From positions 240,001 through 272,000 of the forward strand of contig JAUIDC010000001.1 of the NCBI GenBank assembly GCA_030429145.1: a DNA stretch of 32,000 bases. Direction: 5' to 3'. Below, in pieces: positions 21,119-25,690 of this stretch; the first letter of the stretch is position 1, and every line of letters begins with the position of its first letter. The notes under the pieces were generated by a model that had not been told where the DNA came from, did no database searches, and was given only the letters and a program-made list of their open reading frames with translations. Source of the DNA: Candidatus Saccharimonadota bacterium. Lineage in GTDB: Bacteria; Patescibacteriota; Gracilibacteria; Absconditabacterales; Absconditicoccaceae. A program made the position numbers and the translations under genes.

Positions 21119-24100
21119 CTATTTCACAATAAAGTTAACTATCTTATCTTGCACAAAAATAATCTTCACTATCTCTTTACCCTCAAACTGACTACTAAAT
21201 CTCTCGTCTGCCTTCACCAACGCCACTACTTCATCCTGCGAAATTCCCGCAGCAACCTCTATCGTCCCTTTCATTTTACCATTTATCTGCACTGGTAGAT
21301 TGATAGTATCTTCTGCTATCTTATCTGGATCAAATGTCGGCCACTTAGAGAAATGAATATCTCACTCATTGCCAAGTTTTTCCCGCATCTCGGATGATAA
21401 TTTCGTAGCGAATGGAGCGAGAAGTTGTAGAAAGGTTGAGAATTGTTGTTTTGTGATAGATTTTTTATCGTACAGTTCATTTACAAAAACCATAAGCTTT
21501 GATACGGCAGTATTGAATTTCACTCTTTCAATATCTTCTGTCACTCACTTGATAGTTTTATGTAATACCGGATCGATCTCTTTGCCATCCTCTGAGATAA
21601 ACTGCTCTGCTCTTTCGACTCTTTCTATAAACTTTTTTACCCCGCTCAGTGCATTCGGATTCCATATTTTTTCCTGCTCAATTGGACCCATGAACATAGT
21701 ATATGTTCTTGCAGTATCTGAACCAACCTCGTCTACAACCTCACTTGGATTGATAACGTTGCCTCGACGCTTGGACATTTTACGACCATCTGGCCCCAAA
21801 ACAAACCCCTGATGAAACAACTTTGCAAATGGCTCACTGTTACCAATATATCCTTGATCGTAGAGAAACTTATTAATAAAGCGAGAGTACAAAAGATGTC
21901 CATAAGTATGTTCCTTTCCACCAATATAGAAATCCACTGGCAATGTTTTATCAGCCAGATCTTTGCTCAATAGCTCTTTATCATTATGTGGATCAATAAA
22001 ACGCAAGAAATAGAACGCACTATCCATAAACGTATCGAGAGTGTCGCATTCGCGGAGATATGTTGGCTGAGGATTATACTCATTGAAGCGATCGATATAG
22101 GCGGGAGCTTTTACCTCCCTGCCCTCTAAGAGCTCAAGAACATACAAAAGATCAGGGTCTGTGGTCACTTTTTTTACATTATTAATATTCATCCATAGAG
22201 GCTCATGTTTTGCTTTCTCCTCTTCGGAAATTCCAGAGAATCAATCATAAGCTTCGACTAAGTAATATTTATTTATTGTATAATGATTTTCTTTCTTCAA
22301 TGCATGATAGAACTTTCTATGTATCTCTCCCCCTATCTGTTCCTTAATTTCTATATTCATTATTCCTGTTTCTTCACGAATTTCACGCTTCACAGCATCT
22401 TCCCGACTCTCATCTCATTCCAAACCACCAGAAGGAAATGTATAAGACCCATCTATACTCCGCTTTAACAAAGCGATCTCTCAAGTCTTTGCATGACGAA
22501 CAATTCCGTGTACTACATTTCTTCTTCTAACGTCATATTCTTTTTTATAGCCTCGCACCTCATCTGTATACTCAAAAAATGGCACCTTATAATTTTCTGG
22601 CTTATAGTGTGGAAATGTCGGATGATCTGCCAATGGAGATTTCCCGGCTGGTTTATAATCTTTTACGTCTAGCGGCAGAACCACTGGAAGTTCATCTTCT
22701 GGGATCACATGAGGAATCCACTTTGCCTTGTCTGGGTGTGGATTGTAAGCATTATACCTCTCTGTTGTCTGCTTTATTCATGAGTCACCCTTTAACAATC
22801 GATTCATAGCAAAGATACTAGTATCATTTCTTGTTGTTTTTATGAACTCCTCAGCACTCATCCAGACAATTTCATGGAGTTTTTTTGCTTCCTCATCAGT
22901 AGGTTCAGCCTGCTTTGAGCGATCTACTTCAAAATAGAGAAGATGATTAATACTATATTGATTTCTGTGTTTTGTAGGATGGTAGAATTGAACATGATAC
23001 TCTCATAATTCTTTCACAAGTTCTGCATCAGCAAAACCTCACTCCTCAAGTAATTCACGTTTTGCTGCCTCTATAGCATCTTCTCACTCAGTACCTCAAA
23101 AAAATGTCGTTACGTCACCATCATGAGCCCACTTCAAGAAGCAATACTCGTCACCACTTTTATCTTTCACTATACATTGAATTACCTGTCTTGGAGTCAC
23201 GGGCTCGCCAGGCTTAAATGCCTTATTTCCCTCTGCGTACATAAAGAACGGCACCTGCTCTTCACTATCAAATGTGTAATAGAACGGAATCGGGCACCCC
23301 CAATAACGTTGACGAGAAATCGACCAGTCGCGAAGTTTATATGTTGTTTTTCTACGACCGAGTCATTGCTCTTCAAGATATGTAGTTATTTTAGACTTTG
23401 CTTCTTCATTTGTGATGTCATTAAAATCCCCCGAATTAATAAGAACTCACGCACCAGTATTACATACTCCTCCCTCAAATGACTCATCATGAATCACTTG
23501 TTTGATAGGTAGGTCATGTGCCTTAGCAAATTTCCAATCTCTCTCATCATGAGCAGGCACAAACATTACTGCGCCAGTTGCATAATCAGGCAGGACATAA
23601 TCTGCATACCACACTGGCACTTGTTCTCCAGTTAATGGATGTTTTGCATAGACACCTGAAAACATTCCTGACTTCTCCTCAGCATCCTGCTGTCTCTCAA
23701 GTGCTGTTTTCTTACCTGTCGCTTTACGATACTCCTCAAGCTTCGCCTTATTTTCTGGAGAAAGCAGCACATCAATAGACTCATTTTCCGGTGCCAGCAT
23801 AATAGCTGTCACCCCATAGATGGTATCAGGACGAGTGGTGAATACGGTTATTTTAGGTTCTATCAAATCTACCACTTCAGGGATTTGTTTGTTTTTTTCA
23901 GAATATCCTTCCGTAAAGTGGCCTCTGTCAGGAACTTCTATCAGAGTTGCTTGAAGTTCTTCTAGATAGATCCTTGAACTCTCTATGATAAGAGGCTCAT
24001 CGTTTGAGAGCAAAACAAAAATACCATCCGAAACTCTTTTGCTGAGACTTTTATCAATCTCAAATTCATTAAACTCTTTCCTATCATCATAATGAGCAAC

Positions 24101-25690
24101 TCAAGGTGCATATGCTGGAGCGACAAGAATAAGTTTTCTGATTTTTTTCTTGTTATCTCCAAGTCGCCTTACCATTGCAGCACCTCATGAACTAGTTCCA
24201 ACAAATATTGTGTCTTCATTTACTTTGTCAGCAAGCTTATCTAACTCAGCTTTCCAGTTCTCATAATTTCCTTCCCAACCATTTGGGACAACTGGCAAAT
24301 AAACTTCATATCATTTGTCTTCTAAAGTTTGTTTTAACCAAGGAAACCAGTGTCTCTTATCATGAGGTCATTTTTCCTCATTTTTATTGTAAGGCTGCAT
24401 ACCATGCAAAGCAACAACCGTTCATTTTTTGCTCAATGAACTAATTCCTGTGTCCTCAAGCAACTCAGGAATCTCGAGAACTCAAAAATGCTTATTAAAA
24501 TGTCATTTATCGGCAAATGTTAATATACGTACATTAGGATAATGTTGTTGAAAGTGTGGAACAGCAAGTTCAAATGGTATTGCAGGATCATCTTTGCTAA
24601 AATAAGCGATATGTTCTTCGACTAGGTTATTAAATTTCTTCTCATCTAAAGGTGTATCCCTATAAGCAATTATATCCACTTCTTTAGCCTCATCACCAGT
24701 GACTGGTCTAGAAAAACTACTTGCGACTGTCACAAGCTTTTTAATTTTCTTATTCATTCTAACAATCAGATGTTTTGCTGTAAGCCCTCCTAAACTGTAT
24801 CCGACTATAACTGTATGCTCATTAATTTTATCTCCACATTGCTCAATAATTGCTTCAATATCTTTCTCTAGAACAATACCATTTTCATGATCACATTGAG
24901 GACTGTAACACGGTATACCATTTTTTTCACATTCTTCAGCAAACCATTTTCTCCATCATGCCCTTGCATCATCGTGAATGCCGTGCAACACAATAACGTT
25001 AGAGATTTTCTCACTTTCATTGATAGCAAAATCTATCTCAGCACCCTCAGACTTTCCAATCCAATACTTTTGCTGAGTTTTTGTTTCTTCAGGTCGGTCG
25101 ACGGCATCGAGGTCATTGATAAGTCTTTCTGCGTAGTCGGTGATTTTGATGAATCGTTGCATGTGTTTTTTTTGCACGACTTCAGTGCCACAACGTTCAC
25201 ATTCGCCATTTACGACTTGGTCGTTTGCGAGCACTGTTTGGTCGTGGGGACATCGATTGACGAATGCTTCTTTACGATAGACAAGGCCAGCTTTGTAGAG
25301 CTGTTGGAAAATTCGTTGCGTTCGCTTGTAGTATTCAGGATCAGAGGTTGCAAACTCACGGTTTCGGTCATAGCTCCGATCCATTTGATTACATTGCTCT
25401 ATGAAATTTGAAACATTTTCCTCTGTCACCACATTGGCTGATTTTCCTACTTTCATCGCATACCCCTCTGTAGGGAGTCAAAACGAATCCCAACCGATAG
25501 GGTTTAATACGGTGTATCCTTGCATACGCCTAAAACGCGCTATAATATCATTGGCAGTAAAATTCATTGCATGACCAATGTGCAACCCCGCCCCACTTGG
25601 GTACGGAAACATTGCTAATGTATAGAAAATATTGTCCTTGTCGGCCTTGTTCAAATCTACATTAAACTTGTTATTTCTCTCCATAGGCAT
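21119..25690 (-). CDS. leuS: Leucine--tRNA ligase, giant form (1,523 aa) with four in-frame inserted hydrolase modules
   Basis: Core motifs are in order: [19 protein letters not shown](TGA)-LPTE, the Zn domain [22 protein letters not shown], the CP1 editing domain TVFTTRPDT...[68 protein letters not shown], and the C-terminal [14 protein letters not shown] translated every gap between the six ORF-track fragments by hand. All are in one frame, with 21 TGA and no TAA/TAG until TAG at 21119. Confidence 0.9.
22061..22599 (-). other. Insertion 3 in LeuRS: second Nudix hydrolase domain
   Basis: Canonical Nudix box [23 protein letters not shown] at 22364..22429 fits GX5EX7REUXEEXGU. It is inserted between HPTFPHYKP and [11 protein letters not shown]. 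Confidence 0.8.
22745..23275 (-). other. Insertion 2 in LeuRS: Nudix hydrolase domain
   Basis: Nudix box [21 protein letters not shown] at 23036..23098, with three of its Gly encoded by TGA. It is inserted right after [13 protein letters not shown] and before [11 protein letters not shown]. Confidence 0.75.
23852..25027 (-). other. Insertion 1 in LeuRS: two tandem RBBP9/YdeN-type alpha/beta serine-hydrolase domains (about 390 aa)
   Basis: Domain a: [10 protein letters not shown]...GYSLGG (24785..24802)...SKDDPAIP...ADK-G-HF. Domain b: VVALHGMQ...[20 protein letters not shown]...GTSS-G-G (24182..24199)...SNDEPLI...DRGHF. The insertion sits between AEIDF and [10 protein letters not shown], which are about 9 aa apart in E. 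coli LeuRS. Confidence 0.75.

What the first reader, a model, noticed from the sequence alone, without database searches (positions are those of the whole stretch)
21119..25690. Giant LeuRS: an essential aminoacyl-tRNA synthetase carrying four inserted hydrolase domains in one 1,523-codon frame
Seen:
- 25690->21119 is one frame with 21 TGA and no TAA/TAG. I translated all inter-fragment gaps by hand: 25457-25477, 24758-24955, 24014-24502, 22709-23446, 22193-22480 and 21119-21361.
- In DNA this AT-rich, a 4.6-kb stretch free of TAA/TAG is very unlikely unless it is translated.
- All LeuRS core motifs are present and in order, but they are separated by about 740 extra residues forming four recognisable enzyme folds. 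Two Ser-hydrolase domains lie before CP1. One Nudix domain lies after [10 protein letters not shown]. One Nudix domain lies before the ECDTLDTF helix.
- 16 of the 21 TGA-Gly codons lie in the inserts, including Gly residues of the GxSxG elbow and the Nudix boxes. The inserts have therefore evolved under table 25 and are not fresh foreign DNA.

Established: bacterial LeuRS is usually about 800-900 aa, and the insertion points correspond to short surface linkers in E. coli LeuRS.

Inference: this may be a synthetase with built-in esterase and pyrophosphohydrolase activities. Possible roles are extra deacylation or proofreading of aminoacyl esters, and clearance of Ap4A or aminoacyl-adenylate by-products. 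I know of no described LeuRS with this architecture.
Basis: partly seen in the sequence, partly recalled or inferred. Interest (0 to 1): 0.92.

Follow-up and report, generated by a model that had tools for sequence, protein, structure and literature searches.

The report
LeuRS carrying four nested hydrolase domains
This is a real, intact leucyl-tRNA synthetase gene from a bacterium that reads TGA as glycine, with two serine-hydrolase and two Nudix enzyme domains nested in its surface loops; LeuRS genes loaded in this way are common in ultra-small (CPR/Patescibacteria) bacteria, yet I found no paper that describes or tests them.

Summary
Window 25690->21119 (-) is one 1,523-codon frame with 21 in-frame TGA and a TAG stop. 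TGA encodes Gly: standard-code homologues have G at the conserved TGA columns. Pfam confirms a bacterial LeuRS interrupted by two YdeN/RBBP9-type serine hydrolases (225-420, 421-610) and two Nudix domains (806-998, 1029-1210). With the inserts removed, the 762-aa core matches the leuS equivalog model end to end (840 bits, cutoff 548).

The architecture is not unique. Of the 120 best homologues, 108 carry Nudix and/or Ser-hydrolase modules at four recurrent LeuRS hot spots. Other lineages carry HAD, methyltransferase, kinase, nucleotidyltransferase or nuclease domains at the same spots. Catalytic residues are almost invariant in all modules. NX1 is as conserved as the core between close relatives (77% vs 78-85%). 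Modules are nevertheless gained, lost and replaced between relatives, and both types have stand-alone gene counterparts.

Best reading: a working LeuRS whose permissive loops have captured active small housekeeping enzymes. This protein is the only 2+2 combination among the 165 full-length LeuRS collected. No literature description was found.

The parts
21119..25690 (-). leuS ORF: 1,523 codons plus TAG stop, 21 in-frame TGA read as Gly (code 25)
   Evidence: P0001 in public databases is the same gene translated with table 4.
25019..25690 (-). LeuRS N-terminal core, aa 1-224: first half of the Rossmann fold with HIGH (aa 37-40, nt 25571-25582), the CxxD...CxxC zinc module (aa 147-167) and the strand leading into CP1 (…GAEIDFAIN)
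   Evidence: Pfam tRNA-synt_1 6-209; motifs; 85% identical to P0002.
24431..25018 (-). SH1, aa 225-420: YdeN/RBBP9-type serine hydrolase. Oxyanion HG 236-237, nucleophile Ser299 (GYSLG), acid in SKDDP 365-369, His397 (KGHF). Hot spot A.
   Evidence: PF06821 30.7 bits alone; triad columns conserved in 53/53 modules; motif coordinates.
23861..24430 (-). SH2, aa 421-610: second YdeN/RBBP9-type serine hydrolase. HG 429-430, Ser500 (GTSSG), acid in SNDEP 562-566, His590 (RGHF). 22% identical to SH1. Hot spot A.
   Evidence: PF06821 45.0 bits; B. subtilis YdeN 1uxo E=8e-10 alone and 1.5e-27 with the profile.
23276..23860 (-). CP1 editing domain and its return to the core, aa 611-805: TTRPDT 618-623, AHDERD 713-718, [10 protein letters not shown] 793-802
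   Evidence: PF13603 182 bits, 611-773. These motifs fall in invariant columns of the 120-sequence alignment.
22697..23275 (-). NX1, aa 806-998: Nudix domain, box [22 protein letters not shown] (865-886; REx2EE intact, first Gly spacing one residue short). Starts VPFFMY, ends RYNAYNPHP. Hot spot B.
   Evidence: PF00293 43.4 bits; AF2 pLDDT 91.4, pTM 0.85; Foldseek Nudix folds, 2azw TM 0.80; 77% identical to P0002's module.
22607..22696 (-). 30-aa LeuRS core segment between the two Nudix modules (aa 999-1028: …[31 protein letters not shown])
   Evidence: Nearly identical in P0002, P0005 and P0045; core consensus.
22061..22606 (-). NX2, aa 1029-1210: Nudix domain with a canonical box [23 protein letters not shown] (1088-1110). 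31% identical to NX1. It replaces a 5-6-residue loop present in relatives. Hot spot C.
   Evidence: PF00293 47.1 bits; box conservation; exact boundary against P0002/P0005/P0045.
21122..22060 (-). LeuRS C-terminal core, aa 1211-1523: ECDTLDTF, second half of the Rossmann fold, KMSKR 1304-1308, anticodon-binding and C-terminal domains
   Evidence: Pfam tRNA-synt_1/1g and Anticodon_1 1375-1484. The spliced core matches TIGR00396 positions 23-843 in one stretch.

Best explanation
This is the genuine leuS gene of a code-25 (TGA = Gly) CPR bacterium, i.e. the Gracilibacteria/Absconditabacteria type. The polypeptide is a complete bacterial-type LeuRS: HIGH, zinc module, CP1 editing domain, KMSKS, anticodon-binding and C-terminal domains.

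Three short surface loops have been replaced by four independently folding, catalytically intact small enzymes. Two YdeN/RBBP9-family serine hydrolases sit in tandem just inside the N-terminal edge of CP1 (hot spot A). One Nudix pyrophosphohydrolase follows RQRYWGxPIP (hot spot B). A second Nudix precedes ECDTLDTF (hot spot C).

The protein belongs to a large class of Patescibacteria LeuRS, apparently undescribed in the literature, whose loops act as permissive landing sites for small enzyme domains. These domains appear to be drawn from the pool of stand-alone accessory genes (Nudix, YdeN-type hydrolase, HAD, kinase and others) that these reduced genomes keep and shuffle, in one case next to aaRS genes.

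Mechanism I commit to: LeuRS charges and proofreads tRNA-Leu as usual, and the nested domains work as autonomous hydrolases. The Nudix domains would cleave a nucleoside-diphosphate-X compound and the SH domains an ester or amide. They would be retained because their activities are useful and because being embedded in an essential, constitutively expressed gene guarantees expression and retention.

Shown: the gene, the code, the architecture, the conserved catalytic residues, the recurrence of hot spots, module turnover and the stand-alone relatives. Inferred: that the modules are enzymatically active, that LeuRS function is unperturbed, and that the association is co-expression or hitch-hiking rather than mechanistic coupling.
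For: Intact gene and code. The spliced core scores 840 bits on TIGR00396 against a cutoff of 548. A two-insert homologue modelled by AF2 keeps the LeuRS fold (TM 0.82 to E. coli LeuRS-tRNA 5on2), with its Nudix insert at pLDDT around 90+. The NX1 module folds alone with pLDDT 91.4.

Recurrence: 108/120 best homologues have modules. The hot spots are A (43 SH + 4 NX), E (66 NX + 2 SH), B (31 NX + 4 SH) and C (12 NX + 4 SH). The module profile finds 387 cluster representatives at E<=1e-10, and 112 of the best 147 contain LeuRS sequence.

Selection on activity: Nudix E16/E19/E20 are about 100% conserved at every site. Ser, His and the HG His are 53/53 in SH modules. NX1 is 77% identical between Q and P0002, against 78-85% for the core.

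Permissive loops and a cassette pool: PDDEXK_3, HAD_2, DUF559, SAM-MTase, AAA_33 and NTase domains occur at the same hot spots. Stand-alone 160-195-aa Nudix proteins of the same family sit on long contigs, one between ArgRS and an IleRS-type gene that itself has a nested His_Phos_1. Stand-alone PF06821 proteins are abundant in Patescibacteria, including Gracilibacteria, and in DPANN.

Turnover: syntenic relative P0002 lacks NX2 and one SH and has an NTase at hot spot E instead. Same-site modules are only 32-37% identical where the core is 64-85%. A class II aaRS in the same window is compact.

Not an artefact: the identical protein is recorded from NCBI and Logan sources, and the same junction types recur in more than 100 independent assemblies.
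Against: No experiment and no expression or proteomic data are available. I could not inspect the rest of the genome, so a second compact leuS cannot be excluded.

The type-to-site preference (SH mostly at A beside CP1; NX mostly at E, B and C) and the dominance of just two families could reflect a functional tie to LeuRS that my passenger model underrates.

The SH insert in the whole-protein model was poorly predicted (pLDDT <50), so its packing against CP1 is unknown. I could not measure domain orientations. The homologue samples are biased towards proteins resembling the query, so prevalence among all CPR LeuRS is unknown.
Confidence: 0.6

Rival explanations
1. Functionally coupled synthetase. 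The SH domains beside CP1 would hydrolyse aminoacyl esters, either mis-charged tRNA or aminoacyl-adenylate. The Nudix domains would destroy dinucleoside polyphosphates such as Ap4A or other adenylate-derived by-products made by the synthetase, giving a LeuRS with extra built-in quality control.
For: SH modules sit overwhelmingly at hot spot A, directly at the CP1 editing domain (43/53). The PF06821 relative RBBP9 is an aminopeptidase that forms an aminoacyl-enzyme and needs a free alpha-amine (PMC8866121), which is chemistry compatible with aminoacyl-ester hydrolysis. Ap4A hydrolases and RppH-Ap4A complexes are among the structural neighbours of NX1. The two families dominate across deep lineages with conserved catalytic residues. 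A stand-alone family member lies between two aaRS genes.
Against: The same loops hold methyltransferase, HAD, kinase, NTase and nuclease domains in other lineages. Both module types occur at all four sites. Many LeuRS in the same clades lack them, and close relatives differ in content. CP1 editing motifs are intact. No Nudix subfamily threshold is met. RBBP9's Glu108 anchor aligns to a variable gapped loop. Another stand-alone family member has no aaRS neighbour.
Confidence: 0.22
2. tRNA/RNA-directed toolkit. LeuRS would serve as a tRNA-binding scaffold that presents nested RNA-end-processing enzymes to bound tRNA. These would include Nudix as an RppH/NudC-like 5'-end or cap hydrolase and, in other lineages, kinase, phosphatase, NTase and methyltransferase domains, reminiscent of RNA-repair sets.
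For: The families seen at the hot spots (Nudix, AAA_33 kinase, HAD phosphatase, NTase, SAM-MTase) overlap the enzyme types used in RNA-end repair and modification (my own knowledge). RppH and NudC are among NX1's fold neighbours. tRNA-modification genes (two Sua5/YrdC) follow leuS.
Against: Fold matches are generic (identity 20% or less). No RNA-binding extension was identified. Serine hydrolases and PD-(D/E)XK or DUF559 nucleases do not fit neatly. Stand-alone relatives sit in nucleotide house-cleaning islands with dUTPase, ITPase and thymidylate kinase, which points to free nucleotides rather than RNA.
Confidence: 0.08
3. Selfish or neutral in-frame cassettes. The modules would be mobile insertions, spread by recombination or nuclease-assisted homing into tolerant loops of an essential gene, and would persist because they cannot be deleted cleanly. 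They would give the host no benefit, or this copy would be a decaying paralogue.
For: Module gain, loss and replacement between close relatives. Nuclease domains (PDDEXK_3, DUF559) at the same hot spots. Inserts are more AT-rich (GC3 28% vs 37%) and richer in TGA than the core, consistent with weaker constraint.
Against: Catalytic residues are almost invariant across more than 150 modules. NX1 is as conserved as the core. No intein/Hint signature and no flanking repeats. The LeuRS core is intact and above the equivalog cutoff. Syntenic relatives keep the same gene type.
Confidence: 0.07
4. Artefact: a misassembly, or separate genes wrongly joined because TGA stops are read through.
For: The source is a metagenome-type contig. 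Under table 11 the frame is cut 21 times.
Against: LeuRS core motifs lie on both sides of every insert in the correct order. TGA falls on conserved Gly. There are no TAA/TAG in 1,523 codons (p about 4e-31). The identical protein is recorded in two sources. The same junctions occur in more than 100 independent assemblies, including standard-code Patescibacteria where no recoding is involved.
Confidence: 0.02

Closest known systems
Bacterial-type leucyl-tRNA synthetase (LeuRS-B; TIGR00396; e.g. E. coli 4AQ7/5ON2, T. thermophilus 2BTE)
   Same: All core domains and motifs in the bacterial order, with CP1 inserted after the zinc module. The spliced core is above the equivalog cutoff. The fold of a two-insert homologue superposes on E. 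coli LeuRS-tRNA (TM 0.82).
   Different: 761 extra residues form four additional enzyme domains. Two of them are nested inside CP1, which is itself an insertion in the Rossmann fold, giving three levels of nesting. Typical bacterial LeuRS is about 800-900 aa (the PDB targets are 762-876 residues).
Other Patescibacteria/CPR LeuRS with nested Nudix and/or alpha/beta-hydrolase domains (e.g. P0078 'leucine--tRNA ligase [Ca. Paceibacter sp.]' 1,304 aa; P0099 Kaiserbacteria 1,128 aa; IMG 'leucyl-tRNA synthetase/8-oxo-dGTP pyrophosphatase MutT'; P0021 1,559 aa; P0022 1,522 aa)
   Same: The same two domain families, the same four hot spots and conserved catalytic residues.
   Different: This protein is the only one of the 165 full-length sequences collected with two SH plus two NX. 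It lacks the hot-spot-E Nudix that is the commonest arrangement. These relatives exist only as database entries; I found no published description.
Class I aaRS with an embedded or appended extra catalytic domain, e.g. NCBIfam NF040702 'isoleucine--tRNA ligase, N-acetyltransferase domain-containing' and the IleRS-type protein with nested His_Phos_1 in L004
   Same: An essential class Ia synthetase hosting an unrelated small enzyme domain.
   Different: Different host synthetase and different guest families. A single guest rather than four.
YdeN (B. subtilis, PDB 1uxo) / RBBP9 serine hydrolases (PF06821)
   Same: SH1 and SH2 are full-length members with an intact Ser-Asp-His triad. Stand-alone relatives of about 186 aa are abundant in CPR and DPANN.
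   Different: Here they are nested in tandem inside another enzyme. The substrate is unknown. RBBP9's alpha-amine-binding Glu108 is not demonstrably conserved.
Small stand-alone Nudix hydrolases (nearest structures: E. faecalis 2azw, NudI, YmfB, RppH, Ap4A hydrolases)
   Same: Nudix fold and catalytic box. Stand-alone proteins of the very same family (160-195 aa) share the N-terminal 'IPxF' strand.
   Different: Identity to any characterised enzyme is 20% or less and no NCBIfam equivalog cutoff is reached. The family-specific motifs FYHPTKxRNQYS and RYNxYNP have no assigned function.

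Membership tests
Bacterial leucyl-tRNA synthetase (TIGR00396 leuS_bact) | Equivalog HMM score above the curated cutoff over the full model | tested here: met
   Spliced core of 762 aa: 840.2 bits against a cutoff of 548.4, model positions 23-843 in one stretch.
Bacterial leucyl-tRNA synthetase (TIGR00396 leuS_bact) | Class I signature motifs HIGH and KMSKS | tested here: met
   HIGH at aa 37-40 and KMSKR at aa 1304-1308.
Bacterial leucyl-tRNA synthetase (TIGR00396 leuS_bact) | CP1 editing domain in the bacterial position with a Thr-rich motif and HDxRD | tested here: met
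   PF13603 182 bits, 611-773. TTRPDT 618-623 and AHDERD 713-718 lie in invariant alignment columns.
Bacterial leucyl-tRNA synthetase (TIGR00396 leuS_bact) | Leucylation of tRNA-Leu and editing activity | not testable with these tools
   Requires biochemistry.
Nudix hydrolase superfamily (PF00293) | Nudix box Gx5Ex7REUxEExGU | tested here: met
   NX2 [23 protein letters not shown] fits exactly. NX1 [22 protein letters not shown] keeps E, RE and EE but the first Gly spacing is one residue short.
Nudix hydrolase superfamily (PF00293) | Pfam gathering score and Nudix alpha/beta/alpha fold | tested here: met
   43.4 and 47.1 bits against 21.1. NX1 model pLDDT 91.4; Foldseek top hits are all Nudix, 2azw TM 0.80. 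NX2 was not modelled.
Specific Nudix subfamilies (MutT, RppH, NudE, Ap4A hydrolase, ADP-ribose pyrophosphatase) | NCBIfam equivalog cutoff or close similarity to a characterised enzyme | tested here: not met
   Best scores are 18-38 bits against cutoffs of 95-259. Identity to PDB neighbours is 20% or less.
YdeN/RBBP9 serine hydrolase family (PF06821) | Family HMM above the gathering score; full-length match to YdeN and RBBP9 | tested here: met
   SH1 30.7 and SH2 45.0 bits against 22. Module profile against 1uxo E=1.5e-27 and RBBP9 E=1.6e-23.
YdeN/RBBP9 serine hydrolase family (PF06821) | Ser-Asp-His triad with GxSxG elbow and HG oxyanion motif | tested here: met
   SH1: HG236-237, S299, D in SKDDP, H397. 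SH2: HG429-430, S500, D/E in SNDEP, H590. Columns are invariant in 53 modules.
YdeN/RBBP9 serine hydrolase family (PF06821) | RBBP9-type aminopeptidase specificity (alpha-amine anchor Glu108) | tested here: inconclusive
   Glu108 aligns to a variable, gapped loop with no conserved acidic residue across the modules. The alignment there is uncertain.
Inteins / protein-splicing elements | Hint domain; Cys/Ser/Thr at the N-junction and His-Asn plus a nucleophile at the C-junction | tested here: not met
   No Hint or intein family among the Pfam hits. The junction residues (…AIN|ESEK, …DLI|EPKI, …FYY|TFDS, …IPE|DELP, …PHY|KPEN, …QPT|YLRE) lack the signature.
Genetic code 25 (TGA = Gly; Gracilibacteria/Absconditabacteria) | In-frame TGA at positions conserved as Gly in standard-code homologues | tested here: met
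   G 45/45 at Q71 and 42/43 at Q748. W in only 2 of 373 cells. No tRNA gene in the window to confirm a tRNA-Gly(UCA).

The most novel reading that the evidence does not exclude
In CPR bacteria LeuRS is not just a tolerant host but a functional hub. The YdeN/RBBP9-type hydrolases next to CP1 would act as additional aminoacyl-ester (trans-editing-like) hydrolases. The nested Nudix domains would clear synthetase-made dinucleoside polyphosphates or act on tRNA or nucleotide by-products. That would make this a previously unrecognised, modular quality-control layer built into an aminoacyl-tRNA synthetase, and the four-module protein here would be its most elaborate known form.
Probability: 0.2. Interest if true: 0.85.

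Novelty: new variant of a known kind. Interest (0 to 1): 0.66.

Why it matters
Aminoacyl-tRNA synthetases are among the most conserved enzymes known, and bacterial LeuRS architecture is usually regarded as fixed. Here one essential synthetase carries four extra, apparently active enzymes, two of them nested inside a domain that is itself an insertion. This is also one instance of a widespread pattern in ultra-small bacteria. LeuRS has four recurrent loops that accept, exchange and retain small enzyme domains.

If the domains are passengers, this shows how reduced genomes package and secure accessory enzymes inside essential genes. It also gives protein engineers a natural map of insertion-tolerant sites in LeuRS. 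If the domains are coupled to LeuRS chemistry, it would be a new form of translational quality control.

There is a practical consequence too. Public protein sets translate these code-25 genes with table 4, putting Trp at conserved Gly positions, and annotation pipelines name such LeuRS 'alpha/beta fold hydrolase'. Both errors can mislead automated analyses.

Tried and rejected
1. Table-11 reading, with TGA as stop and separate genes: rejected.
2. TGA as Trp (table 4), as used by the public gene call P0001: rejected, because conserved columns are Gly.
3. Inteins: no Hint domain and no junction signature.
4. Recent tandem duplication producing SH1/SH2 or NX1/NX2: rejected. They are 22% and 31% identical, and each NX is closer to same-site modules in other proteins.
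5. Mobile-element footprints: no flanking direct or inverted repeats. The only notable repeat is the two Nudix boxes.
6. tRNA-Gly(UCA) in the window: none found.
7. Organism identification through GTDB genome scans failed twice. The second failed because I used a W-mistranslated query.
8. Exact-contig look-up of P0001: not on record. Cluster names were absent for the closest relatives.
9. A word-index search with NX1 alone returned nothing, which is a tool limitation.
10. Whole-protein modelling of Q was impossible because of the 1,200-aa limit. The P0007 model left SH@A at pLDDT <50, so SH packing remains unknown. Model coordinates are not exposed, so domain orientations could not be measured.
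11. Assigning a Nudix substrate class from NCBIfam, PDB sequence and Foldseek gave only generic matches.
12. Conservation of RBBP9's Glu108: inconclusive.
13. Six literature searches and three in-paper text searches found no description of Nudix- or hydrolase-bearing LeuRS.
14. dN/dS was not attempted. The closest relative is only about 80% identical in the core, so synonymous sites are likely saturated.

Full report
**Observation**

The reverse complement of window 21119-25690 is a single 4,572-nt frame of 1,523 sense codons ending in TAG. It has 21 in-frame TGA and no internal TAA/TAG. Given the base composition, a frame this long without TAA/TAG has a probability of about 4e-31. The window is 41% GC, so it is only moderately AT-rich.

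TGA must be a sense codon, because LeuRS motifs lie on both sides of every TGA. It encodes Gly, not Trp. At core positions 71 and 748, homologues from standard-code organisms have G in 45/45 and 42/43 cases, and W appears in 2 of 373 cells. A public database entry (P0001, 1,521 aa, from a 936,577-bp contig) is this same gene translated with table 4, so it carries W at all 21 positions.

**Anatomy**

Pfam on the table-25 translation finds tRNA-synt_1 (three stretches), the LeuRS editing domain (611-773), Anticodon_1, two NUDIX stretches and two Ser_hydrolase stretches. Scanned alone, each insert passes its gathering score:

| Insert | Residues | Family | Bits |
|---|---|---|---|
| SH1 | 225-420 | PF06821 | 30.7 |
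| SH2 | 421-610 | PF06821 | 45.0 |
| NX1 | 806-998 | PF00293 | 43.4 |
| NX2 | 1029-1210 | PF00293 | 47.1 |

With the four inserts removed, the 762-aa remainder matches the bacterial leuS equivalog TIGR00396 over model positions 23-843 in one stretch, at 840 bits against a cutoff of 548. HIGH (37-40), the zinc module (147-167), TTRPDT (618-623), AHDERD (713-718), RQRYWG (793-798), DTLDTF (1216-1221) and KMSKR (1304-1308) are present in order.

Both SH domains have an HG oxyanion motif, a GxSxG nucleophile, an acidic residue and a His. NX2 has a canonical Nudix box. NX1 has all catalytic Glu/Arg residues, with the first Gly spacing one residue short.

**Context**

leuS is followed on the same strand by two Sua5/YrdC (TsaC-like) genes and preceded by a small ORF, pyruvate kinase and PPDK. 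The rest of the window holds MutL, RecJ, RecG, an RlmL-like methyltransferase, a compact class II Asx-type aaRS (428 aa), UDG, HhH-GPD, a Fic/RhuM protein and others. No tRNA gene is present. This is ordinary chromosomal housekeeping DNA, and large inserts are not a general property of this genome's synthetases.

**The architecture is a class, not a singleton**

The 120 best homologues are LeuRS of 840-1,559 aa. Precomputed Pfam lists show NUDIX and Ser_hydrolase/Abhydrolase in most of them. The named ones are Patescibacteria: Ca. Paceibacter, Magasanikbacteria, Kaiserbacteria and 'Patescibacteria group'. IMG calls several 'leucyl-tRNA synthetase/8-oxo-dGTP pyrophosphatase MutT (NUDIX family)'.

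Using local HMMs of the two module types, and mapping excision points onto the spliced core, I find 114 Nudix and 54 Ser-hydrolase modules at four hot spots:

| Hot spot | Position in Q | SH | NX |
|---|---|---|---|
| A | Q224/611, just before TTRPDT | 43 | 4 |
| E | inside CP1, about Q727-750 | 2 | 66 |
| B | after RQRYWGxPIP | 4 | 31 |
| C | before ECDTLDTF | 4 | 12 |

Only 12 of the 120 have no module.

An exhaustive HMMER search with the site-B/C Nudix profile against 1.84 billion cluster representatives gives 387 hits at E<=1e-10 and 54 at E<=1e-30. Of the best 147 new hits, 112 contain LeuRS sequence.

Among the 165 full-length LeuRS collected, Q is the only one with 2 NX + 2 SH. Equally large proteins exist with other mixes, such as P0021 (1,559 aa) and P0022 (1,522 aa). 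These samples are biased towards the query, so I cannot say what fraction of CPR LeuRS are loaded.

**Are the modules alive?**

Across all sites the Nudix-box residues E7, R15, E16, E19 and E20 are essentially invariant (E16 is 31/31, 12/12 and 66/66 at sites B, C and E). In the SH modules the nucleophile Ser, the His and the HG His are 53/53, and the acid is D or E.

Between Q and its closest relative P0002, NX1 is 77% identical, the same as the LeuRS core (78-85%). The NX1 module modelled alone is confident (pLDDT 91.4, pTM 0.85) and matches only Nudix folds. A two-insert homologue (P0007) modelled whole keeps the LeuRS fold, with TM 0.82 to E. coli LeuRS-tRNA complexes and a confident Nudix insert. 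Its SH insert came out below pLDDT 50, probably because of a poor alignment there.

The SH profile matches B. subtilis YdeN (E=1.5e-27) and human RBBP9 (E=1.6e-23) over their full lengths. All of this argues for active enzymes under purifying selection, not decaying junk.

**History**

Modules cluster by site: the nearest neighbour in another protein is at the same site for 107/114 NX and 48/53 SH. Q's pairs are old paralogues (NX1/NX2 31% identical, SH1/SH2 22%), so they are not recent duplications.

Content nevertheless changes quickly. P0002 sits in a syntenic locus (PK, small ORF, leuS, two Sua5), yet it has one SH at A, a nucleotidyltransferase-like domain at E, NX at B and nothing at C. 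At site C its loop TAKDGK occupies exactly the place of Q's 181-aa NX2, between identical flanks.

P0002's SH is only about 32% identical to either Q SH. P0003's site-B Nudix is 37% identical to NX1 although the cores are 64-74% identical. That implies replacement of modules at the same site.

The inserts are more AT-rich than the core (GC3 28% vs 37%) and use TGA for Gly more often (16/51 vs 5/48, Fisher p=0.014). They are therefore fully adapted to code 25, and perhaps under somewhat weaker codon-level constraint. No repeats flank the junctions and there is no intein signature.

**Where the modules come from**

About 25 of the best Nudix-profile hits are Met-initiated proteins of 160-195 aa with no LeuRS sequence, and they carry the same N-terminal 'IPxF' strand that I first mistook for a linker motif. 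They lie on long contigs and are named only 'MutT (NUDIX family)'.

One of them (P0268) sits between ArgRS and a 1,167-aa IleRS-type gene that itself carries a nested His_Phos_1 domain (residues 506-669). The surrounding island holds thymidylate kinase, dUTPase, further Nudix genes, an MBL-fold protein, PNPOx and an ITPase. Between strains, Nudix, HAD and zeta-toxin-like kinase genes swap at the same positions. Another stand-alone member (P0280) has no aaRS neighbour.

The SH profile retrieves mainly stand-alone PF06821 proteins of about 186 aa from Patescibacteria (including 'Candidatus Gracilibacteria bacterium') and from DPANN archaea.

At the LeuRS hot spots, other lineages carry PDDEXK_3, HAD_2, DUF559, SAM-methyltransferase, AAA_33/zeta-toxin-type kinase and nucleotidyltransferase domains.

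**Interpretation**

The structural claim is secure (about 0.95): one intact leuS with four nested, intact enzyme domains, belonging to a widespread CPR class.

For function I favour autonomous passengers. The LeuRS loops are permissive landing sites that capture members of the small accessory-enzyme pool of these reduced genomes. The enzymes are kept because their activities are useful and because an essential host gene guarantees their expression.

In its favour:
- SH modules sit mostly beside CP1.
- RBBP9, a family member, is an aminopeptidase that forms an aminoacyl-enzyme and requires a free alpha-amine (PMC8866121).
- Ap4A hydrolases are among NX1's fold neighbours.

Against it:
- Guest families at the same loops are diverse.
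- Both families occur at all four sites.
- CP1's editing motifs are intact.
- No Nudix subfamily can be assigned.
- RBBP9's Glu108 anchor is not demonstrably conserved.

**Novelty**

Six searches of the open-access corpus, plus text searches inside a domain-insertion survey, a jumbo-phage comparative-genomics paper and the AARS Online paper, found no description of LeuRS with nested Nudix or serine-hydrolase domains.

The phenomenon is visible in databases only through automatic composite or misleading names. NCBI labels some such LeuRS 'alpha/beta fold hydrolase'. A curated analogue exists for IleRS with a GNAT domain (NF040702, seen). I therefore rate it a new variant of a known kind: synthetases with extra catalytic domains. 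It is interesting mainly as a window onto a general, untested feature of CPR LeuRS.

Noticed in passing
L004:7387-10890 (also L003, L005, L006): An IleRS-type class I synthetase of 1,167 aa carries a nested His_Phos_1 phosphatase domain (residues 506-669). It sits in an island of nucleotide house-cleaning genes (thymidylate kinase, dUTPase, several Nudix genes, ITPase) together with ArgRS. Between strains, Nudix, HAD and zeta-toxin-like kinase genes swap at the same positions.
   Followed up: partly
window 20529-21113 and 19895-20506 (- strand): Two tandem Sua5/YciO/YrdC (TsaC-like) genes lie directly downstream of leuS. The first is a strong match (131 bits) and the second is divergent (47 bits). 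The same pair follows leuS in the syntenic relative L002.
   Followed up: no
window 21119-25690; database protein P0001: Public protein collections hold this gene translated with table 4, giving Trp at all 21 TGA = Gly positions. Many relatives show the same G-to-W errors at Nudix-box and GxSxG glycines. This distorts motif searches and made a back-translation genome scan fail.
   Followed up: yes
window 22061-25018 compared with the rest of the ORF: The inserts are more AT-rich than the LeuRS core (GC 37.1% vs 41.1%; GC3 28% vs 37%). They also use TGA for Gly about three times as often (16/51 vs 5/48, p=0.014).
   Followed up: partly
homologues P0021 (1,559 aa), P0022 (1,522 aa), P0038, P0010/P0034, P0002: The LeuRS hot spots also host HAD_2, DUF559 nuclease, SAM-methyltransferase, AAA_33/zeta-toxin-type kinase, PDDEXK_3 nuclease and an aminoglycoside-nucleotidyltransferase-like domain. 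Inserts of 175-191 aa at sites B and C (P0035, P0054, P0019) have no Pfam match where scanned (P0054 was not scanned).
   Followed up: partly
window 12892-13893 (+): A 333-aa protein combines a RhuM-family N-terminal part with a Fic/DOC domain. This is a possible toxin or defence-type gene among housekeeping genes.
   Followed up: no
window 18106-19632 (+): A full-length GH3-family protein (N, middle and C domains; an acyl-adenylate-forming amido synthetase type) is encoded in this small-genome bacterium.
   Followed up: no
window 26207-26698 (-): A 163-aa lysine-rich ORF with no Pfam match lies between pyruvate kinase and leuS. A small unannotated ORF (128 aa) occupies the same position in the syntenic locus L002.
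   Followed up: no
Nudix modules at sites B and C (e.g. Q aa 814-819, 905-916, 983-991): The family has conserved motifs outside the Nudix box: an N-terminal VP(F/Y)FxY strand, FYHPTKxRNQYS, and a C-terminal R(Y/F)NxYNPxP. Stand-alone members share the N-terminal strand. None of these motifs has a known function.
   Followed up: partly
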